Assembly (NCBI GenBank): GCA_937875245.1
Contig: CALNCH010000036.1
Coordinates: 6,093 to 70,092 of the forward strand
Length of the DNA: 64,000 bases
Direction of reading: 5' to 3'
Source: an uncultured Spirochaetaceae bacterium
Lineage (GTDB): Bacteria > Spirochaetota > Spirochaetia > Treponematales > Treponemataceae
This document shows, in pieces, positions 4,864-64,000 of this stretch. The notes beneath the pieces were generated by a model. It did no database searches, was not told the DNA's origin, and saw only the letters and a program-made list of their open reading frames with translations. The position numbers and the translations under genes are program-made. How positions within the stretch are numbered: position 1 is the stretch's first letter; each line of letters starts with the position of its first letter.

Positions 4864-5217
4864 ATGAGTAATGATGAAAACAAAATCTCAGATCAAATTG
4901 ATGGGGGTTTAAAAGCCAAAGATGAAGATCAGGCTAGAAGAGATGATATCTTGATATCAATCTGTAAAGAAAGGGAAAGACAAATTTCACTATAGGGACC
5001 AAAAGATGATAATCCTCCAGTTGCTTGGGCTTTAATAATAGGTAAGCAATTAGGACAATTAAATCATGGTGTAATGAAAGCTGCTAAAGCAGATCAGAAT
5101 GAGCTAGGTGAATTAGAGTTTACCACTAATATGGATCTCTATAAAAGAAAACTTATACAAATAGCAGCTGTATGTATAGCAGCAATAGAAGAGTTCGAAA
5201 TCAAAACAGAAAAATAA
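4864..5217 (+). pseudogene. MazG-like (all-alpha NTP pyrophosphohydrolase-like) gene interrupted by an in-frame TAG
   Basis: ATG 4864; TAG at 4993-4995; the same frame stays open to TAA 5215-5217. Conceptual product ...CKERERQISL*GPKDDNPPVAWALIIGKQLGQL...LIQIAAVCIAAIEEFE. The stop sits where related proteins have W in ERxRQxxKWG. Confidence 0.45.
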
Positions 5218-22497: not shown

Positions 22498-23037
22498 TTA
22501 CTTAATTCCGGTAGAACCAAATCCTCCTGATCCTCTTTCTGTAACTTCTTTATAAAGCTCTTCAATAGGTAATTCTAAAGGTTTTGAGTATAAAACCGGA
22601 ATTAAGATGAATTGAGCTATCTTCATACCCGGAGTTAATGAAACTAAACCTCTACCAAAATTATATACATGGATATGAATTTCGCCTTGGTAATCAGCAT
22701 CAACTATTTTAGCAGCAACTTTTAATTTGTGTTTAGTAGCTATGCCTGATTTATCATTAGCCATTAACATATAATTAGAAAGGGGTCCAGACATATTAAC
22801 ATGAATACCGGTTGGAATACAAATATCGTCATGTGTTCTTAATTTTGTTTCTTGAAAATCATTTGGAATATAGAAATCTAATCCAGCTGATAATTCAGTT
22901 CCTCTTGTAGGTGACTTAACATCTTTAGTTTTAGCAAAAGGTAAATCCGGAGTAATAAATGAAATTATACCTTGTGTTTCAAGGTAGGCTTCTCCCCATT
23001 GTTGAGTACTCTCTTCTGATTGTTGATTGTTATCCAT
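22498..23037 (-). CDS. dut: dUTP diphosphatase (trimeric dUTPase)
   Basis: Five dUTPase motifs: SAGLDFY, IPTGIHV, KIVDADYQGEIHIHVYN, GMKIAQFILIPV, ERGSGGFGSTG. The ORF extends to an ATG at 23103, adding a hydrophobic 22-aa extension. I prefer ATG 23037 (MDNNQQSEE...) but this is not proven. Confidence 0.88.
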   Translation of the reverse strand: MDNNQQSEESTQQWGEAYLETQGIISFITPDLPFAKTKDVKSPTRGTELSAGLDFYIPNDFQETKLRTHDDICIPTGIHVNMSGPLSNYMLMANDKSGIATKHKLKVAAKIVDADYQGEIHIHVYNFGRGLVSLTPGMKIAQFILIPVLYSKPLELPIEELYKEVTERGSGGFGSTGIK

Positions 23038-23247
23038 TGTAAATACATTTGTGATTTGTGAAGTTAAATAGTAGACAAAGAATATGGGAGTAAAGACCCC
23101 CATACCTTAGAAAACAAAAATAAAAATAATTACTGTAATTCAAAAACGTAAAACCAGAAACGTTGTGAAAACCGAATGTTATAATTCAATAGTAGTTTTT
23201 TCTTTCTCTAGTGTCTAATAACTATAACAATATAATATACCACTATT

Positions 23248-56422: not shown

Positions 56423-57290
56423 GAGAGAACCCTCAATACACATTACAGAAAGTAAATTAGCCAAGATTTTATTTGAGATCATGGATGTGGAAGGTTCACC
56501 CGTAAATTGGAATTATAAAAAACTGGCTACTGAAATAGTAAAAAAAGCTCAGAAGCATACTTTAAATAACAGAAGCCTTTCTATAAGTAATGATAAATTG
56601 GATAAGAAGGTAAAACAATTAGTGAAAGCTTCTGAGTCTGATGCTATGATGTTATCTAATTTAATCTATCATATTCGTAGAAGTAAAACCAAACTTTACA
56701 CAAAAACTAAAGTAGAACCTGACTCTAAAGAATACGGTGCACTTAAGGAATTAACTGCTATATGTATAGAATTTTGTAATACCTTTGAACTGGAGAAAAA
56801 AGAAGGATTTATGAAGTATTTGAATATAGCAATCCCAAAAATATCATCTTCATTAAATTTCATTGGCAAGTTAGTTAATCTAGCAGAAAAAGTATATTCT
56901 ATAATGGAAGCTGAAAAATTTATACTAGAAGATGAAAATAGCAGCGAAACAAAAGAGATATTTAATATTTATTCTAAACTAATTACAGAACAAAATGGAT
57001 TAGTTATAAATTATGATAAGGACCCAACTATATACAGGCACTTCATAGAAGTTAGAAGGTTAACTGATGAAATGGACATACCATCAGATATTTACATCAA
57101 AGCCCAATTCCACGGATTAATGTGGACTGACTCATATCCTGAACCACAACATCTAGTTGGGGATAAAGCAATGAGTAGGCTAAGTAAGTATATGTATGAA
57201 AATAAAATCAGAGTTAGTACACATAAGACAGCAACAGAAAGCTTTGCAGATAAACTTAAAAAATTAAAAGATGGTAATACAGGTAACTAA
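56415..57290 (+). CDS. hypothetical protein
   Basis: 291-aa ORF overlapping both neighbours in the replication operon. Confidence 0.7.
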   Translation: MDKREPSIHITESKLAKILFEIMDVEGSPVNWNYKKLATEIVKKAQKHTLNNRSLSISNDKLDKKVKQLVKASESDAMMLSNLIYHIRRSKTKLYTKTKVEPDSKEYGALKELTAICIEFCNTFELEKKEGFMKYLNIAIPKISSSLNFIGKLVNLAEKVYSIMEAEKFILEDENSSETKEIFNIYSKLITEQNGLVINYDKDPTIYRHFIEVRRLTDEMDIPSDIYIKAQFHGLMWTDSYPEPQHLVGDKAMSRLSKYMYENKIRVSTHKTATESFADKLKKLKDGNTGN

Positions 57291-58713
57291 TCAGAAATGT
57301 AAACTTGTAGGAGATATCAAAATTATTGAGAGGCTCAAAAAACAGTTTAACATTAAAAACCCAAATGCTTTTCACATTCGAAGGAGAGGAAATATTGGAG
57401 ACAACTGGGATGGTAAAATCAATTACATTACAAATGCAGATTTCTTTAAGACTGGCCTATTACCTCAGGTAGTAGATTTCATAGAGAAAGTACTAAAGAA
57501 AAAGGTAGTATTAGAAGATTATAGGAAAGAGTGGGATATTAAACCCAAGAAAATAAGATATGTAGGGGAGCATACCTTAAAAGGCGATAGACAATATCAG
57601 GCTGATGCAATCCATTCTGTAACACATAACAAAGTAGGAGATATTAATTTTCCTATCGGTGCTATCAATGCTGCAACTAATGCTGGTAAGACAACTATCA
57701 TGGCCGGTATTCATGAAGCATACAGGAGAAAGATACCTACATTAGTATTACTTAATGATGGTGACTTATTCGAACAGTTTAAAAGGGAGATGCCAATGTT
57801 ATTAAGAGATGAAGATATTGGCTTCATAAGGGGAAAGAAAGATAACCATTGGGGTAATATCACTATTGCTATGGTTCAAACTTTAACATCAGGAGATAAC
57901 TTAAGACAGTTTAGGAAAAAGATAGAGTCAGTTGGTATCTTATTAGTTGATGAGGGAGATTTAGCGGATAACAATTCTTATAAAAGCGTTATCAATATAG
58001 CAATCAATGCCGCAGTGAGAGTAGCACTATCCGGTTCTATATTCTTAAGTAAACTAAAAAAGGATTTACCCAAAAATCAAAACATACACTGTATATTCGG
58101 TAATGAAGTATTCAGGATAACAAAAGCTGAGATGGTAGAATTGGGACATTCAACTCCAATTATAGTAAACATCCATAGAGGTTCTAATAAACCTGGTATG
58201 AAAGGTGATTTCAAAGGAGAATATGACTCAGGTATAATGTACAATGAGGATAGAGCTTTAGAATGTGTTAGAAGATTAAAGTTTCAAGCCAAATTAAAAA
58301 GATTACCTGCATTGGTAGTTTGTCAATTCCATGATCACATTGATTTAATGTATAAGATATTCCAAAGTGAACTAGGTCACAAATATAAAATAGAAATGGT
58401 ACATGGGGATACTAAGAACAGAAAAGATATATTTGAAAGGTATAGAGTTGGTAAAGTAGATATCCTTATTTCATCATTTATTGTAAAGAGAGGTAAGAAT
58501 ATGCCTTTAGTGAGATATATTCAAAATGCAGCAGGCTCTGACTCACAAGAAACAATTTGGCAAATAATGGGTAGGGGTGAAAGAAAGGATCAATCTAAGA
58601 AAAAGGTATACATGGATGATTTTATGGATGAGGGAGTTTATCTAATGAGACACTCAAAACATCGCATAAGATACTACAAGGAGTCCGGTATGAAGGTAAT
58701 AATGAAATGTTAA
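57271..58713 (+). CDS. superfamily 2 DNA helicase (DEAD/DExH-like)
   Basis: 480 aa. Motif I NAATNAGKTT; motif II LLVDEGD; motif III ALSGS; motif VI QIMGRGER. Confidence 0.8.
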   Translation: MVIQVTNQKCKLVGDIKIIERLKKQFNIKNPNAFHIRRRGNIGDNWDGKINYITNADFFKTGLLPQVVDFIEKVLKKKVVLEDYRKEWDIKPKKIRYVGEHTLKGDRQYQADAIHSVTHNKVGDINFPIGAINAATNAGKTTIMAGIHEAYRRKIPTLVLLNDGDLFEQFKREMPMLLRDEDIGFIRGKKDNHWGNITIAMVQTLTSGDNLRQFRKKIESVGILLVDEGDLADNNSYKSVINIAINAAVRVALSGSIFLSKLKKDLPKNQNIHCIFGNEVFRITKAEMVELGHSTPIIVNIHRGSNKPGMKGDFKGEYDSGIMYNEDRALECVRRLKFQAKLKRLPALVVCQFHDHIDLMYKIFQSELGHKYKIEMVHGDTKNRKDIFERYRVGKVDILISSFIVKRGKNMPLVRYIQNAAGSDSQETIWQIMGRGERKDQSKKKVYMDDFMDEGVYLMRHSKHRIRYYKESGMKVIMKC

Positions 58714-58746: not shown

Positions 58747-59151
58747 ATGGCAAAACGAGAAGCAAAGAAAAAAAGTAGAATTAAAGAAGAGGAATTTCTA
58801 AAACCAATAGACATCACTAAATTCGGTACAGATGATGATCCATGTTTTGGTAAACATTATAACTTAGCAGAATCAGAATGTAGAAGATGTGGGGATCAAT
58901 CTTTATGTGCTATAGTATTCGGTCAGAAATTACACTTAGAAAGGGGTAAGATTGAAAAAGATAGTAAATTTAAAGATTTAGAAATTGATAAACTAGACAA
59001 GAAAAAACCTACAGAAAATAAAGCTTTAGAGAAATGGGTTAAAACTAAAATGAAAGAAGGTTTAACACGATCTGAAATTATCACTAAAGCTAAATCAACC
59101 TATGGTAGTACCAGGGATGAAATCAAAGAAATATACAAAAAGCTTAAATAA
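58747..59151 (+). CDS. Lys-rich Cys-cluster protein
   Basis: 134 aa. CFGKHYNLAESECRRCGDQSLC. Confidence 0.65.
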   Translation: MAKREAKKKSRIKEEEFLKPIDITKFGTDDDPCFGKHYNLAESECRRCGDQSLCAIVFGQKLHLERGKIEKDSKFKDLEIDKLDKKKPTENKALEKWVKTKMKEGLTRSEIITKAKSTYGSTRDEIKEIYKKLK

Positions 59152-59771
59152 TGGACACAGTTACAGAAAGATTTAATAACGCTGGAAAGAATAGGCCTAT
59201 CATAAAGGACTATTCCGAGTTTATAGACCATTGTGATACTCTAAACAATAACATTGTTAATTATTATGAAAAGGTAATAGTAATGATAGAGTCTCAAAAA
59301 CTAACCGAAGAGATAATCCAAAAACATGATGAACAAATAAACCTACTATATGGAAATGCTTTTATATTATTAGGGTATATGGGTATTACAGAAGAAGATT
59401 TGGATATCACTGCAGATAAATACGTAACATCAATAGGACTGGCAGACTCAGCCCATTATATGGAAAGAGGATTTATCTTTGAAAGATTAAAACGTATAGC
59501 AGTAAAAGAGTTGATAAGCTTTGGATTAATACCAAACCCAAACTATCAAAAGTTCTTTGGTAATAGAACTATATTTTATAGTGATGCATACAGAGCCTGG
59601 ATAAAAGGTGAAATCTTAGATGTATTCACTAACATACAATATATCAGACAAAGTTTATTCCAGGAAAAAGATGAGGATCTATTGGGATTTGTTTTTGGGC
59701 TAATGATAACAATCAATATTTTATTAACAACAACAGAAACAAAGTTAGAGATACCATGGTCAGATATTTAG
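59151..59771 (+). CDS. hypothetical protein
   Basis: 206-aa ORF, first of four mutually overlapping genes leading into polA. Confidence 0.65.
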   Translation: MDTVTERFNNAGKNRPIIKDYSEFIDHCDTLNNNIVNYYEKVIVMIESQKLTEEIIQKHDEQINLLYGNAFILLGYMGITEEDLDITADKYVTSIGLADSAHYMERGFIFERLKRIAVKELISFGLIPNPNYQKFFGNRTIFYSDAYRAWIKGEILDVFTNIQYIRQSLFQEKDEDLLGFVFGLMITINILLTTTETKLEIPWSDI

Positions 59772-60622
59772 AGTTCGGAAACTCACAAGAAGCTTGGGAA
59801 GGTTTAAATGAATACTTCTTAAACAATGAAGAAGAGATATTAAGTAAAGGCTGCAGAAATGGCAGTCAACTTATTGCTTTCGATAATTTCATTAAAATAC
59901 GTAAAGCCTGGGTATTACCAGAAATGGATTTCGGAAACACATTTGGTTACAGATTACAGAAATGGACTGGATTAATAAATAACTACGTAAATCTTAATTA
60001 CCTAGATATCCTTAAATCACAAATCTTAGCTAAAGAAGGAGGTAGAAATCCAAATTACAATATATCAATGCAATTTGATAACAGTCATGGGCATGGTAAG
60101 AATTGCTTATTATCTCTAACATTCAGTAGAACACAAGAAACTGATATACCAATCGCTACATTCCATCTTAGATCATCTGAGATAACTAAAAGGCTCTTAT
60201 TGGATTTATTATTGGTACAACGTATAGCAGAATATATATATGGTGAAGATCAACACATAATGATAAAGATGTTATGTACTAATGTTTATCAAAGTGCTGA
60301 ATCATTCTGTATGTATGATATCTATAAACCCTTGAAAAGTGTATTAGAGGTAAAAGGTAAGAAAATGACTAACTGGCAAGAAAGGGTTTTAAGGATTACA
60401 GAAGAGTTTAAAACAATTGATCCTAAAAAAGTAACCTATAAAGTATTCCTTAGATCAGTTAATCAACTACAAGGACTTAAGGGTGACAAGCCAATGTATG
60501 CAAAAGATCTTCTACTATTTAAGAATGATATAGATTACCCAGAAGATTGCATAACAATAGCACAACGAAAAAAATATAAAAGAGCCTATAACAAAAAATT
60601 AAAGAAAGATGGTAAGATATAA
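59756..60622 (+). CDS. thymidylate synthase superfamily protein (divergent paralogue A)
   Basis: 288 aa. KNCLLSLTFSR...ATFHLRSSEITKRLLLDLLLVQRIAEYI lines up with the ThyA core PCHAFFQFY...[27 protein letters not shown]. The Cys and RS.(D/E) elements are retained. Confidence 0.5.
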   Translation: MVRYLEFGNSQEAWEGLNEYFLNNEEEILSKGCRNGSQLIAFDNFIKIRKAWVLPEMDFGNTFGYRLQKWTGLINNYVNLNYLDILKSQILAKEGGRNPNYNISMQFDNSHGHGKNCLLSLTFSRTQETDIPIATFHLRSSEITKRLLLDLLLVQRIAEYIYGEDQHIMIKMLCTNVYQSAESFCMYDIYKPLKSVLEVKGKKMTNWQERVLRITEEFKTIDPKKVTYKVFLRSVNQLQGLKGDKPMYAKDLLLFKNDIDYPEDCITIAQRKKYKRAYNKKLKKDGKI

Positions 60623-61463
60623 TGAAACCAAACCTAAGTTCTTAGGATTAAAAGATACTATAGCAGAAACAGTAAAATTATTTGAAGATAACTTTAAAGC
60701 TGAACCCATAAATGATTGGCAAGGTAATGAGGACTTTAATAACTTTACTATGGGTGTTATAAGAGACATTACATTAAAATTTAGTCCGGGATTTTATGCT
60801 AATGACCTAAACCAATTGGCATTAGTATGTGGGGCAGATATACCTTGGGCTGATGACCATTTCCAAGAACGTATATCAGGAACACCAACAAATCCTGGCG
60901 ACACTTATAAAAACTGGCCTTACCATTCAAACCTTGACAATAGTAATTACAAGGATGAAAAATTCTCTCATACATATCAGGAAAGGTTTTGGCCTAAAAT
61001 GGCTGGTAATGAGAATATACCACCAGGTTTTACAGTAGACCCAAATCACGGTATCCGTTATCAATATGGGGATTTAAATGATCTAATATCACAATTAGAA
61101 GATAAAATCCTAACACGACAAGCTTACTTACCAATCTGGTTTCCAGAAGATACTGGGGCTAAAGGACGTAGAGTACCTTGTACTCTTGGATACTATTTTT
61201 ATATAAAACCAGAAGATTTAAGTATTCATCTAATATACACCATTAGAAGTTGTGATCTTTACCGACACTTCAGAAATGATATTTATTTAACAACTAGATT
61301 ACTTATACATATCTATGATATATTAAAAACTAGCCATCCTAACCTACAATTAGGCACAGTTAAAATGGATATCTATAATCTTCATCGTTTTTCTAATGAC
61401 AAATACATGTTTGACAAAAAAGAAAAAAAGATAAAACTATGGCAAAACAATTTAATAGAATAA
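60609..61463 (+). CDS. thymidylate synthase superfamily protein (paralogue B; dNMP C5-methyl/hydroxymethyl-transferase type)
   Basis: 284 aa. RQAYLPIWFPED...RVPCTLGYYFYI...LIYTIRSCDLYRHFRNDIYLTTRLLIHI lines up with ThyA RRIIVSAWN...APCHAFFQFYV...[25 protein letters not shown]. The N-terminal half is unlike canonical ThyA. Confidence 0.6.
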   Translation: MVRYNETKPKFLGLKDTIAETVKLFEDNFKAEPINDWQGNEDFNNFTMGVIRDITLKFSPGFYANDLNQLALVCGADIPWADDHFQERISGTPTNPGDTYKNWPYHSNLDNSNYKDEKFSHTYQERFWPKMAGNENIPPGFTVDPNHGIRYQYGDLNDLISQLEDKILTRQAYLPIWFPEDTGAKGRRVPCTLGYYFYIKPEDLSIHLIYTIRSCDLYRHFRNDIYLTTRLLIHIYDILKTSHPNLQLGTVKMDIYNLHRFSNDKYMFDKKEKKIKLWQNNLIE

Positions 61464-61873
61464 CTAGAGAACAAATGTTTATAGATATTGCCAAAACTAT
61501 TGCTAAACGGTCTACTTGCACAAGAAAACAAGTAGGCTGTGTTTTAGTAATAGATGGTAGAATAGTGGCCACAGGCTATAATGGAGTATTACCCGGAATA
61601 CCAGATGAAAATGGGATAGATGCCAATGGTAATTCAAGGACTGTACATGCAGAAGCTAATGCTATTGCCTTCTGTGCTAGAAAAGGAATATCAACAGAAA
61701 ATTGTATATTATATTGTACTTTACAACCTTGTGAAAAATGTGCCGAGCTAATCATTCAAGCTGGAATAGATGAAGTATACTATTTAGATGAGTACAGAGA
61801 TACAACCGGATTACAGGTTTTAAAACTAAGTAACGTAAAAACAGAAAAGATATGGGAAGCGTCTACAGAATAA
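61439..61873 (+). CDS. dCMP deaminase (zinc-dependent cytidine/deoxycytidylate deaminase fold)
   Basis: 144 aa. CTRKQVGCVLV..GRIVATGYNG; HAEANAI; LQPCEKCAELI (HAE...PCxxC). Confidence 0.88.
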   Translation: MAKQFNRITREQMFIDIAKTIAKRSTCTRKQVGCVLVIDGRIVATGYNGVLPGIPDENGIDANGNSRTVHAEANAIAFCARKGISTENCILYCTLQPCEKCAELIIQAGIDEVYYLDEYRDTTGLQVLKLSNVKTEKIWEASTE

Positions 61874-64000
61874 TAAAGACGGAAAAAGAATTAGATAGGC
61901 TCATACGATATTGTAAGCAAACTAAATATGTCCTGAGGTTTCAAAATCAATTGATGCATATTTAGTTTGAAACCTCAGGACATCCACATCATTCGCCACT
62001 AGGATATCCAACTATATTAGGTGTATCATTTCAACCAGGCTCATCTTGGATAATACCATTAGGACATTTCGATAGTCCATTTTATGACTTTGGGGTAAAA
62101 GAAAGTAAACAACCTTGGTTAAGAATACTTAAGAAATTTTCTAAAGAAGTATTAGAAGATAAATCTATAGTAAAGGTAGCATGGAATTTTAAATTCGAAT
62201 ACACCTGGTTAAAGAAATATGATTGTAAAATCTATGGTAGAGTATTTGATGGGATGTTGGCTAAATACCTTTTAAATGAAGAACGTCCAAATGACCTTAA
62301 ATCACAGGTATCAAAATATATACCTGAATTTGCAGGATATGAGGAGAACTACGAAGGTAGTAAATTACCGTGGGATGAAAAACCACTAGAAGGATTATCA
62401 AAATATTGTGGATTGGATACCGATAACACATTACGATTAATGATATTCTTTGAAAAACAATTAATAAGTAATAAATTTTATCACCTATTCAGAAACATGT
62501 TAATGATGGCATCATATGTATTGGGTGACTCTGAGTTTGAAGGTATTCCAATTGATGTCCCATACTTAGATGGTTTAGTTATTAAGTATCAAGGTTTAAT
62601 TCAAGAATGTGAGGATAAACTAAGAGCTAATAAATATATACGTAAGTTTGAGAAATGGCAATTTAATGAGAGATTAGAAAAGTTAATTACCAAAATTGAA
62701 CTAGAGATAGAAGAAATAGAGGAAGAGATAGAGAACTTAGATGATCCTAAAAAAATTAAAACCAAAAAGAAATCTATACAAACCAGAGAGGATAAAATTG
62801 ATAGATGGAGAGCTGGAGATTTCCTTACAACAAAAGCAGAGCAAGCTTTAAATGACCCCATTAATTTTGGATCACCCGGACAAATGGGAGCTCTATTCTT
62901 TACTTCAGAAAAAGGTTTCAATTTTCCTATTATAAAATACACCACTGATAAATGGAAAAATGAAACAGAAAATCCAAGTACAGATGAAGAGGTATTAATT
63001 GAATTAGAAAAAATTGATAAAACCGGGTTCTGTAAAGAATTATTAGAATACAGGGGATTAACTAAAATGTATTCTACTTTCGTAAAAGGTATTAGAGAAA
63101 AAGTATCATACGGTGAAAGAATACATGGACGATTTAATCTCCATCAAACTGTAACAGGTAGATTATCTTCTAATGATCCTAACTTACAACAAATTCCTCG
63201 GGATACCACATCATCCGATATCAAGAAAATGTTTGTACCACCTAAAGGGTATTTCTTATTACAGCTCGATTATTCTCAGGCTGAATTAAGGGTAATGGCT
63301 GCACAAGCTGGAGAAAAGACAATGATCAAATGGTTCAAAGAAGGAAAAGATATTCATATCATGTCAGCTTTAAAGAAATACCATGTTGAAGATGAATACG
63401 ATAGAATTAAGGAAATCTTGGATAAAGAGGATGAGAATGATCCAGAATTTAAAGTATGGAAAGTTAGGAGAAAGCAAGCTAAGACAATTAACTTCGGTAT
63501 CATCTATGGACAAGGGGCTAATAAGTTAGCTGGATCATTAGGATGTTCAGTTGATGAAGCAAAACAATTCTTAAAAGATTTCGATAAAACATTCCCTAAA
63601 GTAGCGTCATTCGTTAAGAAGCAACATGCTTTAGCAAATGAAAATGCATATGTTAAAAATGTATTCGGAAGAAAGAGAAGACTTTGGGATGTTGATTCAG
63701 ATAATAATGCCTTAGTAGCACAAGCTTTACGCCAATCTGTTAATGCTCCTATTCAAGGGGCAGCTTCTGATTACACATTATTTTCATCTATCTTAATATG
63801 GGAAAAATCATTACATGCTAAAGGCATAAAGTTTGATAAATTAACTAATGATATGTTAAATATTTATTCTAATGATCCTGATGTATTACTTATAGATTTA
63901 CCTCAGGCCTACACTGTACATGATTCACTTGGTTTCTTTATAAAACCAGAAGCAATTCACAACACAGTACCTAAATTATTAAAAATATGTAGTAACCCTG
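61852..64000 (+). CDS. DNA polymerase, family A (3'-5' exo + pol domains), interrupted by in-frame TAG 61963-61965; 3' end outside window
   Basis: Absent from the ORF track because it runs off the window. One frame reads MGSVYRIIKTEKELDRLIRYCKQTKYVLRFQNQLMHI*FETSGHPHH... It continues through WNFKFE (ExoII-like), YCGLD (ExoIII), DYSQAELRV (motif A), RRKQAKTINFGIIYG (motif B) and TVHDS (motif C). Confidence 0.92.
61928..61983. repeat. perfect 18-bp inverted repeat with 20-nt loop inside polA
   Basis: ATGTCCTGAGGTTTCAAA (61928-61945) is the exact reverse complement of TTTGAAACCTCAGGACAT (61966-61983). The loop ATCAATTGATGCATATTTAG contains a 10-nt palindrome and the TAG. Confidence 0.95.

What the first reader, a model, noticed from the sequence alone, without database searches (positions are those of the whole stretch)
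59756..61873. Two tandem, divergent thymidylate-synthase-superfamily genes coupled to dCMP deaminase and polA: possible non-canonical pyrimidine (5-substituted dU/dC) pathway
Four genes overlap one another: 59151-59771, 59756-60622, 60609-61463 and 61439-61873. The last runs into polA at 61852, which implies translational coupling.

Both middle genes keep the ThyA catalytic core. Paralogue B has PC(T) plus RSCD, and paralogue A has NC plus RSSE. Their N-terminal halves are unlike canonical ThyA.

A phage needs at most one ThyA. Known second members of this fold in phages are dCMP or dUMP hydroxymethylases (T4 gp42, SPO1 gp29), which start DNA hypermodification. The dCMP deaminase (HAE/PCxxC) would feed dUMP. 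A trimeric dUTPase lies at 22498-23037, and a possibly dead MazG-like gene lies at 4864-5217.

I infer that this phage may replace T or C with a 5-modified base. That is not proven here.
Basis: partly seen in the sequence, partly recalled or inferred. Interest (0 to 1): 0.7.

Follow-up and report, generated by a model that had tools for sequence, protein, structure and literature searches.

The report
Paired TS-fold cytosine-modification genes
Two adjacent genes in this uncultured phage both encode thymidylate-synthase-shaped enzymes whose active sites look built for cytosine rather than uracil nucleotides, and the same unrecognised pair recurs in about 100 deposited phage genomes (including the therapeutic mycobacteriophage Muddy), which points to a widespread, uncharacterised route to modified cytosine in phage DNA.

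Summary
Four overlapping genes lie at 59151-61873, and both middle proteins have the thymidylate synthase (TS) fold. B shows this by sequence and structure; A only by predicted structure and motif register.

Neither is a thymidylate synthase. Both keep the Cys nucleophile and carry Asp at the position (E. coli N177) that switches specificity from dUMP to dCMP. A separate ThyX lies downstream, just outside the window.

B belongs to a sharply defined clade (Q127, R143, T147, H173, D177, short C-terminus). That clade differs from T4 gp42 (5hmC), the TS of the 5mC phage PaMx74 (Xp12 group), and RB69 gp48 (5-hydroxyC).

A belongs to an unannotated TS-fold family with no Pfam, PHROG or NCBIfam match. 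It sits beside B in 74 of 75 related loci and in about 105 of 106 strong B-clade phage records. The module there is P-loop kinase, NTP pyrophosphatase, A, B, (dCMP deaminase), DNA pol I.

The best reading is T4-like synthesis of a C5-modified dCMP before replication. The deaminase would feed ThyX, not A or B. The product and A's role are unknown.

Caveats: this phage lacks the recognisable pyrophosphatase, the "MazG-like" gene is unsupported, and polA is interrupted in this assembly.

The parts
57271..58713 (+). SF2 (ResIII/Helicase_C) helicase, the conserved left flank of the module
   Evidence: Pfam ResIII 7.8e-13 and Helicase_C 2.7e-11; phrog_16. A helicase precedes the kinase/PPase/A/B block in related loci and in Muddy, Zuko and Amok.
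58747..59151 (+). 134-aa Cys-rich protein of unknown function. It is a conserved upstream neighbour and is not shown to be part of the pathway.
   Evidence: Detected upstream of A in essentially all related loci. No significant family match.
59151..59771 (+). 206-aa ORF in the slot that holds an all-alpha NTP pyrophosphohydrolase in most relatives. It may be a degenerate homologue.
   Evidence: Only 4 close homologues and no library match. hhalign to the relatives' PPase family gives probability 19%, E 1.2e-3, and the acidic metal-binding motifs are lost. The relatives' gene matches phrog_12184 at 1.7e-18, phrog_173 at 5.6e-9 and Pfam dUTPase_2 at 22.8 bits against a 22.9 cutoff.
59756..60622 (+). 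Protein A: a divergent TS-fold protein from an unannotated family. It has Cys117, Arg139 and Asp150 (equivalent to C146, R166 and N177D), lacks the E58/W80/W83 segment and the R126'/R127' pair, and ends in a basic tail.
   Evidence: AF2 pLDDT 92. Foldseek PDB and BFVD hits. Register from hhalign. Cys, Arg and Asp invariant in 48 of 48 A-like sequences across four groups. 193 clusters at 50% identity in 1.84e9 proteins. AT-hook-like tails in long homologues.
60609..61463 (+). Protein B: a TS homologue of a distinct cytosine-type clade (Y94, R126, Q127, R143, C146, T147, R166, S167, D169, H173, N176, D177, H207, F209; short C-terminus).
   Evidence: for family and fold. for residues against E. 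coli ThyA, T4 gp42, RB69 gp48 and PaMx74 gp52; far below the NCBIfam TS equivalog cutoffs; 25 residues after the H207 equivalent, against 57 in E. coli.
61439..61873 (+). dCMP/cytidine deaminase-family zinc enzyme (HAE, PCxxC)
   Evidence: PF00383 1.2e-26 and phrog_174 2.1e-53. Present in 10 of 75 related loci, 7 of which lack the PPase.
61852..64000 (+). Family A DNA polymerase. It starts inside the deaminase gene, is interrupted in this assembly, and runs off the window end.
   Evidence: Intact 737-aa orthologue in L096.
61930..61981 (.). Perfect 16-bp inverted repeat (arms 61930-45 and 61966-81) created by a 24-nt net insertion. TAG at 61963-65 replaces the ExoI Asp codon of polA.
22498..23103 (-). 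Trimeric dUTPase. In many relatives it lies just upstream of the PPase/A/B block.
   Evidence: PF00692 6e-21 and phrog_135 1.8e-34. Position in relatives.

Best explanation
The block is the nucleotide-pool arm of the phage's replication module. It most likely makes a C5-modified deoxycytidylate before replication, following the T4 logic.

B is a dCMP-specific TS-family enzyme. It would attack C6 of dCMP with Cys191 and add a one-carbon unit at C5. It lacks the TS C-terminal closing segment and has a charged residue at position 143, so I infer non-reductive, hydroxymethyl-type chemistry rather than reductive methylation.

A is a second, near-obligate TS-fold partner that keeps the Cys, Arg and Asp needed for covalent catalysis on a cytosine nucleotide. 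It has lost the folate-binding N-terminal elements and the two Args that TS donates across the dimer. I infer that it either processes B's product through the same exocyclic-methylene chemistry or works with B in a complex.

The P-loop kinase downstream (outside the window) would phosphorylate the modified dCMP, and polA would incorporate it. The deaminase plus ThyX would supply dTMP.

Shown: the folds, the active-site residues, the conserved synteny and the co-occurrence. Inferred: substrate, product, A's role, and whether the virion DNA is modified at all.
For: Fold and residues:
- TS fold for both proteins.
- B has D224 at N177, T192 at H147, N223 at F176 and D216 at D169, like T4 gp42. This holds in all 49 family members.
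- The best PDB sequence hits of B's profile are 1njc (which I recall to be the L. casei N229D mutant) and the CMP hydroxymethylase MilA.
- A has Cys117, Arg139 and Asp150 in the TS register. They are invariant in 48 of 48 A-like proteins from gut, remote, proteobacterial and actinobacterial phages.

B is not the thymidylate synthase:
- ThyX is present here and in the close relative L096.
- Canonical ThyA gp68 sits next to the A/B pair in Huwbert, and a ThyX in ctfzr933.
- B scores 28.7 bits against the NCBIfam TS equivalog cutoff of 174.55.

Context:
- 67 of 75 related loci have an NTP-PPase directly upstream of A-B.
- 59 of 61 have the P-loop kinase.
- The order kinase, PPase, A-like, B-like, (deaminase), pol I recurs in PMBT14, Amok, Huwbert, Strzyga, Muddy and Zuko.
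- Per-genus record counts for A-like and B-like are identical for Gordonia, Mycobacterium, Streptomyces and Microbacterium.

Literature:
- N177D and position 147 are the residues most associated with modified-cytosine contigs (PMC8670742).
- A TS homologue within 3 kb of a deaminase occurs in 70% of modified contigs and 6% of unmodified ones (bioRxiv 10.1101/2024.12.05.627091).

Short C-terminus: B-clade proteins have 9-37 residues after the H207 equivalent. T4 gp42 has 30 and RB69 gp48 has 14. E. coli ThyA has 57 and PaMx74 gp52 has 63.
Against: - There are no data on the DNA itself.
- This phage lacks the recognisable NTP-PPase. Its 206-aa substitute has lost the acidic motifs, so there is no evident way to exclude dCTP. 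Replacement could be partial or absent.
- No glycosyl- or other transferase was recognised among 10 large early genes.
- Position 143 is Arg. This is neither the acidic residue of known hydroxymethylases nor a hydrophobic one. PaMx74 gp52 has a polar Asn there, and that phage is reported to carry 5mC, so the 143 rule is not strict.
- A's assignment to the TS fold rests on one AF2 model with moderate TM-scores (0.46 and 0.58) and on profile alignments that are not significant on their own (probability 1-2%).
- Actinophage A-like proteins have Tyr instead of Glu at the D169-equivalent position.
- polA is interrupted in this assembly.
Confidence: 0.55

Rival explanations
1. Ordinary thymidylate-synthesis operon. 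B is a true dTMP synthase fed by the deaminase, with the dUTPase and thymidylate kinase completing the route. A is an unrelated hypothetical protein. This is how actinophage genome announcements annotate the block.
For: The GenBank annotations of the homologous blocks call these genes thymidylate synthase, deaminase, dUTPase and thymidylate kinase. The Azira announcement calls them 'thymine synthesis' genes (PMC10353413). B's homologues pass Pfam PF00303.
Against: - Asp177 and Thr147 are invariant. From the literature, N177D converts TS to a dCMP enzyme (cited in PMC8670742 and PMC13326640).
- Q127, R143 and H173 differ from canonical TS, and the C-terminal closing segment is missing.
- Genuine ThyX or ThyA genes coexist with the pair.
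- B scores far below the NCBIfam TS cutoffs.
- Most relatives have no deaminase.
- A is TS-fold and strictly linked to B.
Confidence: 0.08
2. A 5-methylcytosine pathway of the Xp12/PaMx74 type. B makes 5mdCMP. The adjacent deaminase converts part of the 5mdC nucleotide pool to thymidine nucleotides. A is an accessory factor.
For: N177D TS homologues found with a deaminase, a PPase and pol A mostly made 5mdCMP when tested (5 of 7). One linked deaminase converts 5mdCTP to dTTP (bioRxiv 10.1101/2024.12.05.627091). The gene order B, deaminase, polA is the same here.
Against: - B's clade differs from PaMx74 gp52 at positions 127, 143, 147, 173, 176 and 209, and lacks its long C-terminus.
- Pamexvirus modules have a DHFR and no A-like gene (PMC9206674).
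- Neither A nor B recovered Xp12-group phages by tblastn.
- This phage keeps a ThyX, so a deaminase bypass is unnecessary.
- Most relatives lack the deaminase.
Confidence: 0.2
3. A and B form a heterodimeric enzyme that is a single catalytic unit. One TS-fold subunit is catalytic and the other mainly structural or regulatory, exploiting the obligate dimer and half-sites behaviour of TS.
For: Co-occurrence and adjacency are near-perfect and the two ORFs often overlap. A lacks conserved equivalents of R126'/R127', while B keeps R126 but has Q127. That asymmetry is what a heterodimer would allow.
Against: - No A-B fusion appears among the 150 best family representatives.
- Cys, Arg and Asp are invariant in A, which argues against a purely structural role.
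- A and B are separated by 200-500 nt, or by a dUTPase gene, in many relatives.
- No complex modelling was possible.
Confidence: 0.15
4. A acts on polynucleotide DNA rather than on a free mononucleotide. It would use TS-type Cys chemistry on cytosine or on B's product after incorporation, or be tethered to DNA at the replication fork.
For: A has a basic C-terminal tail. Longer homologues carry AT-hook-like GRP motifs. The Args that clamp a free 5'-phosphate in TS are lost.
Against: The tails are absent from the proteobacterial and actinophage A-like proteins, e.g. PMBT14 at 262 aa. No TS-fold enzyme is known to act on DNA. A basic tail could equally serve replisome tethering or have no specific role.
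Confidence: 0.08

Closest known systems
Phage T4 dC-replacement pathway: gp56 dCTPase, gp42 dCMP hydroxymethylase, gp1 dNMP kinase, with cd and td supplying dTMP
   Same: It has the same logic and parts list: NTP pyrophosphatase (in relatives), a cytosine-specific TS homologue, a P-loop dNMP kinase, a dCMP deaminase and a separate thymidylate synthase. B shares gp42's T147, N176-D177 and D169 residues and its short C-terminus.
   Different: B has Arg rather than Asp at position 143, His at 173 and Gln at 127. A second TS-fold protein (A) is near-obligatory. No glucosyltransferase was recognised. This phage's own pyrophosphatase slot holds a degenerate protein. The thymidylate synthase is ThyX, not ThyA.
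Xp12/PaMx74 (Pamexvirus) 5mC module and the MetaGPA TS-plus-deaminase modules (mSCD-B5)
   Same: An N177D TS homologue is clustered with a PF00383 deaminase, a pyrophosphatase and DNA pol A. This association is linked to modified-cytosine contigs.
   Different: PaMx74 gp52 has R127, N143, P147, G173, Y176 and a 63-residue C-terminus. Its module has a DHFR and no A-like gene.
5-hydroxy-dCMP synthases (RB69 gp48, DLP3 gp80, HY126 AfhB; PDB 9iqu, 9iqc)
   Same: These are TS-fold, cytosine-specific (N177D), compact enzymes. AfhB is the top solved-structure match of A.
   Different: Their diagnostic D169N substitution is absent: A has Glu and B has Asp. Whether A binds flavin is unknown. The TM-score to AfhB is only 0.46 and 0.58.
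MilA CMP 5-hydroxymethylase (PDB 5b6d, 5jnh)
   Same: It is a TS-fold enzyme with Asp at the N177 position. It is among the best sequence hits for B's profile and the best structural hits for A.
   Different: It is a bacterial antibiotic-biosynthesis enzyme acting on a ribonucleotide. It has no paired second TS-fold subunit.

Membership tests
Thymidylate synthase ThyA (dUMP to dTMP), tested for B | TS alpha/beta fold | tested here: met
   Foldseek against many TS structures, E about 1e-8, TM about 0.55
Thymidylate synthase ThyA (dUMP to dTMP), tested for B | Passes the curated family thresholds | tested here: not met
   PF00303 23.7 bits against 24.3. NCBIfam TS equivalogs 28.7 against 174.55 and 16 against 327.
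Thymidylate synthase ThyA (dUMP to dTMP), tested for B | Asn177 (uracil specificity) and His147 | tested here: not met
   Asp224 and Thr192. Asp is invariant in 49 of 49; position 147 is Thr in 44 and Ser in 5.
Thymidylate synthase ThyA (dUMP to dTMP), tested for B | C-terminal segment that closes over folate for hydride transfer | tested here: not met
   25 residues after the H207 equivalent, against 57 in E. coli ThyA and 56 in Huwbert gp68
T4 gp42-type dCMP hydroxymethylase, tested for B | Cys nucleophile, Asp at 177, Thr at 147, Asp at 169 | tested here: met
   C191, D224, T192 and D216 aligned to gp42 C148, D179, T149 and D171
T4 gp42-type dCMP hydroxymethylase, tested for B | Acidic residue at position 143 (water access) | tested here: not met
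   Invariant Arg188
T4 gp42-type dCMP hydroxymethylase, tested for B | Makes 5hmdCMP from dCMP and methylene-THF | not testable with these tools
   Needs an enzyme assay or the in vivo LC-MS assay
Xp12/PaMx74-type 5mdCMP synthase, tested for B | Active-site and C-terminal signature of PaMx74 gp52, and a DHFR in the module | tested here: not met
   Differs at positions 127, 143, 147, 173, 176 and 209. Short C-terminus. No DHFR found in the locus.
5hodCMP synthase (RB69 gp48, AfhB), tested for A and B | D169N substitution | tested here: not met
   A has E142 and B has D216
TS / dCMP hydroxymethylase superfamily, tested for A | TS fold with Cys at the start of the strand and an R-S motif at the end of the next strand, before helix J | tested here: met
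   AF2 pLDDT 92. The secondary-structure order matches. All Foldseek hits with E<=1e-3 are TS-family. C117, R139, S140 and D150 fall in register.
TS / dCMP hydroxymethylase superfamily, tested for A | Detectable sequence homology to PF00303 | tested here: not met
   No Pfam, PHROG, NCBIfam or PDB sequence hit. hhalign probability 1-2%.
TS / dCMP hydroxymethylase superfamily, tested for A | Folate-site elements (E58, W80, W83) and the phosphate-clamping R126'/R127' | tested here: not met
   Only about 15 residues lie between strand 38-50 and the Y65 motif. Positions 96-102 are not conserved as Arg.
T4-like complete dC-replacement system, tested for the locus | dCTP-destroying pyrophosphatase encoded with the TS homologue | tested here: inconclusive
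   Present in 67 of 75 relatives. In this phage the slot holds a 206-aa protein without the acidic motifs.
T4-like complete dC-replacement system, tested for the locus | Phage dNMP kinase | tested here: met
   A 214-aa P-loop kinase just beyond the window: AAA_28 28.6 bits, dNK 24.3 bits, thymidylate-kinase PHROGs about 3e-7. Present in 59 of 61 relatives.

The most novel reading that the evidence does not exclude
The A/B pair is a two-component TS-fold system that makes a cytosine C5 modification not yet described. B would generate a hydroxymethyl or exocyclic-methylene intermediate. A has no folate site but keeps the Cys, Arg and Asp triad. It would re-activate that intermediate at C6 and transfer it to a different nucleophile or reductant, or do so on DNA. 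If so, about 100 cultured phages, including the therapeutic phage Muddy, and hundreds of gut phage genomes would carry an unrecognised modified base.
Probability: 0.3. Interest if true: 0.85.

Novelty: new variant of a known kind. Interest (0 to 1): 0.66.

Why it matters
TS homologues are the entry point of nearly all known pyrimidine hypermodification pathways. Their product is currently predicted from a few active-site residues.

This locus exposes a large clade (2,850 homologues of B in the protein collection) whose signature fits none of the characterised classes (dT, 5hmdU, 5mdC, 5hmdC, 5hodC). It also exposes a near-obligate second TS-fold protein that annotation pipelines and domain-based association studies miss, because it has no Pfam domain.

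The same pair sits in cultured, easily grown phages: Gordonia CT-cluster phages, Mycobacterium phage Muddy, Pseudomonas PMBT14 and Serratia Serbin. The question is therefore directly testable.

Any modification would bear on restriction and CRISPR evasion and on sequencing-based methylation calls. It would also matter for the behaviour of a phage used clinically.

Tried and rejected
- **Direct sequence link between A and TS or B.** BLASTP E 0.038; hhalign A against B probability 0.9%; A against a reference-plus-B profile 2%. None is significant. Only the register agrees with the fold, so A's membership rests on structure.
- **A as a 5hodCMP synthase,** suggested by the top PDB hit AfhB. Rejected, because the D169N signature is absent.
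- **B as an Xp12-type 5mC enzyme.** Not supported by the residue comparison with PaMx74 gp52.
- **The 206-aa upstream ORF as a pyrophosphatase.** Only weak collinear similarity, with the motifs lost. Left as 'possibly degenerate'.
- **The 'MazG-like' gene at 4864-5217.** No Pfam match even when read through its stop.
- **A-B fusion proteins as evidence of a complex.** None among the 150 best representatives. The long forms carry basic AT-hook-like tails instead.
- **Transferases among 10 large early genes.** No matches.
- **A cultured relative of the phage itself.** None. The polymerase is 41-44% identical to three unannotated metagenomic records and at most 31% to SPO1-like phages.
- **A wrong accession recalled from memory.** MG596799 is PMBT3, not PMBT14. 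Corrected to MG596800.
- **Literature searches** for a paired TS-fold system, or for DNA modification in Muddy, Gordonia, PMBT14 or Serratia phages. Nothing found.
- **Stop-codon reassignment** as an explanation for the two in-frame TAGs. Unlikely, because the long structural ORFs are intact and the relative has GAC at the polA position.


Full report
**Observation.** They overlap by 16, 14 and 25 nt, and the quoted motifs are present. The last gene is a PF00383 deaminase (1.2e-26; phrog_174 2.1e-53).

B is recognisably TS-like, but only weakly. It matches phrog_160 at 6.7e-23, scores 23.7 bits on Pfam PF00303 against a cutoff of 24.3, and is far below the NCBIfam TS equivalog cutoffs.

A matches nothing by sequence in Pfam, PHROGs, NCBIfam or the PDB, either as a single sequence or as a 47-sequence profile. 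A against B is not significant either.

Structure prediction settles the fold question. A's model is confident (pLDDT 92, pTM 0.89). Every solved-structure match with E<=1e-3 is a TS-family protein. The list is led by the phage HY126 dCMP hydroxylase AfhB (9iqu, E 5e-6), then MilA and T4 dCMP hydroxymethylase. B's model (pLDDT 81) matches TS broadly at E about 1e-8.

**Active sites.** I fetched real reference sequences: E. coli ThyA, T4 gp42, RB69 gp48 and PaMx74 gp52. I read off the positions that recent work uses as diagnostics. These are C146 (nucleophile), N177D (dCMP specificity), L143 (methyl or hydroxymethyl product) and D169N (5-hydroxy-dCMP synthases) (PMC13326640). MetaGPA adds positions 177 and 147 as the two most associated with modified-cytosine contigs (PMC8670742).

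- **B:** C191, T192 (as in gp42 and gp48), D216, N223-D224 (as gp42 N178-D179), R170/Q171 and Y123. It has an invariant Arg188 at position 143 and His220 at position 173.
- **A:** C117, R139-S140, E142 (the D169 position) and D150 (the N177 position), placed by a profile alignment whose register agrees with the predicted strands and helix. A lacks the segment carrying E58, W80 and W83, and has no conserved equivalents of R126'/R127'.

So both proteins look cytosine-directed, and neither fits the 5-hydroxy class.

**The phage has a separate thymidylate synthase.** The source is a 77.4-kb NCBI contig. Just beyond the window it encodes polA, gp32, a RecA/UvsX homologue, a 5'-3' exonuclease, a ThyX and a P-loop dNMP-kinase-like protein. 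ThyX scores 34.4 bits on Pfam Thy1 against a 24.8 cutoff and matches phrog_85 at 3e-40. The deaminase is therefore better explained as feeding ThyX, as with T4 cd and td, than as feeding A or B.

**Conservation.** 582 viral contigs encode an A relative. In the 80 loci fetched, the order is dnaB, primase, p291, helicase, 134-aa protein, (dUTPase), X, A, B, (deaminase), polA, p140, gp32, recA, exo, kinase.

X is an all-alpha NTP pyrophosphohydrolase of about 285 aa. It is found in 71 loci overall and in 67 of the 75 loci that cover the whole cassette (phrog_12184 1.7e-18, phrog_173 5.6e-9, dUTPase_2 at the Pfam cutoff).

- B is next to A in 74 of 75 loci.
- The kinase is present in 59 of 61 loci.
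- The deaminase is present in only 10 of 75 loci, and 7 of those lack the pyrophosphatase.
- ThyX was detected only in this lineage, though it is also in the close relative L096.

In this phage the X slot holds the 206-aa ORF. It has only four close homologues, and its similarity to the pyrophosphatase family is weak and lacks the motifs.

**The pair is not confined to gut phages.** A's nearest viral structure outside its own family is an uncharacterised protein of the cultured Pseudomonas phage PMBT14. Its genome reads thymidylate kinase, pyrophosphohydrolase, that protein, 'thymidylate synthase', dCMP deaminase, DNA pol I.

The same layout occurs in Gordonia phage Amok, Microbacterium phage Huwbert, Brevundimonas phage Strzyga, a Manatee Spring virome contig, Mycobacterium phage Muddy and Streptomyces phage Zuko.

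The partner proteins are homologous to A:

- The actinophage group against A's family gives hhalign probability 81%, E 1.2e-5.
- The proteobacterial group gives 54%, E 1.3e-4.
- The Manatee Spring protein bridges the two, at 6e-6 to A's HMM and 6e-32 to PMBT14.

Cys, Arg and Asp are invariant in all 48 A-like sequences compared. Glu142 is replaced by Tyr in the actinophage group.

Per-genus record counts agree for B-like and A-like: Gordonia 68 and 68, Mycobacterium 9 and 9, Streptomyces 4 and 4, Microbacterium 2 and 2, Serratia 6 and 6, Pseudomonas 5 and 5.

All B-like proteins share one signature: Q127, R143, T/S147, H173, N/D176, D177, F209, and only 9-37 residues after the H207 equivalent. 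Huwbert gp68, next to the pair, is a textbook ThyA.

**Comparison with known systems.** The general scheme is the T4 paradigm: a phage TS homologue with N177D, plus a pyrophosphatase, a kinase, a deaminase and a polymerase. It has been tied to modified cytosine in metaviromes. In Xp12-like modules the TS homologue makes 5mdCMP, and some linked deaminases convert 5mdCTP to dTTP.

PaMx74 gp52 differs from B at six diagnostic positions and keeps a TS-length C-terminus. Its module has a DHFR and no A-like gene. B resembles gp42 more closely, but has Arg where gp42 has Asp145.

From established knowledge, the TS C-terminus is needed for the closed ternary complex and for hydride transfer. I therefore infer that B's chemistry is non-reductive. 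This is an inference, not a result.

I found no paper describing a paired TS-fold system or DNA modification in any carrier of the pair. Actinophage notes treat the block as 'thymine synthesis'.

**A's role.** A's family is small, at 193 clusters at 50% identity in 1.84 billion proteins. I found no A-B fusions. Long members carry basic, AT-hook-like C-terminal extensions, and the window's A ends in a basic tail.

Three mechanisms remain open:

- a second catalytic step on B's product;
- an A:B heterodimer;
- action on, or tethering to, DNA.

I could not model complexes.

**Verdict.** The finding is a new variant of a known kind. It is made more interesting by the near-obligate, unannotated TS-fold partner and by its presence in cultured phages, where it can be tested at once.

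Noticed in passing
window 61852-61990: polA is interrupted in this assembly. A 24-nt net insertion plus a GAC-to-TAG change creates a perfect 16-bp hairpin (arms 61930-45 and 61966-81) from the reverse complement of the downstream FETSGH codons, and removes the ExoI Asp. The 92%-identical relative L096 has an intact 737-aa polA. This could be a fold-back or template-switch mutation, or an assembly artefact.
   Followed up: partly
Read through, it matches no Pfam family. It is the second in-frame TAG seen in the window. Genome-wide recoding looks unlikely, because the long structural ORFs are intact.
   Followed up: partly
L001 16917-17564 (beyond the window end; absent from L096): A GIY-YIG/NUMOD3 homing-endonuclease gene sits between recA and the 5'-3' exonuclease in this phage but not in its close relative. 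HNH endonuclease genes are likewise inserted next to the pyrophosphatase in some relatives (e.g. L026 8569-9075).
   Followed up: partly
L014, L017, L039, L062 (polA regions): In several related loci polA appears as two separate ORF hits 700-900 nt apart. This suggests an intervening element, such as an intron, an intein or an endonuclease gene, within the polymerase gene.
   Followed up: no
related loci L003-L082: The dCMP deaminase and the all-alpha NTP pyrophosphatase tend to replace one another. 7 of the 10 loci with a deaminase lack the pyrophosphatase, against 1 of the 65 loci without a deaminase. The sample is biased toward near-identical human-gut contigs.
   Followed up: partly
L089 (Microbacterium phage Huwbert) 3806-5451: Two adjacent genes are both annotated 'thymidylate synthase', but they differ in kind. 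gp67 has the B-clade cytosine-type signature and gp68 is a canonical ThyA. An A-like gp65 lies upstream, giving three TS-fold genes in one block.
   Followed up: yes
L092 (Mycobacterium phage Muddy) 3458-5127: The therapeutic phage Muddy carries the same A-like (gp47, 'hypothetical protein') and B-like (gp46, 'thymidylate synthase') pair, between a kinase and dUTPase on one side and DNA pol I on the other. I found no report on whether its DNA is modified.
   Followed up: partly
L001 18419-19357 (ThyX, beyond the window end): ThyX is long (312 aa) and its signature reads THRKLSRNSASSR, whereas I recall the usual ThyX motif beginning RHR. It passes Pfam Thy1 but not the NCBIfam thyX equivalog cutoff (49.3 against 87.9 bits).
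   Followed up: no
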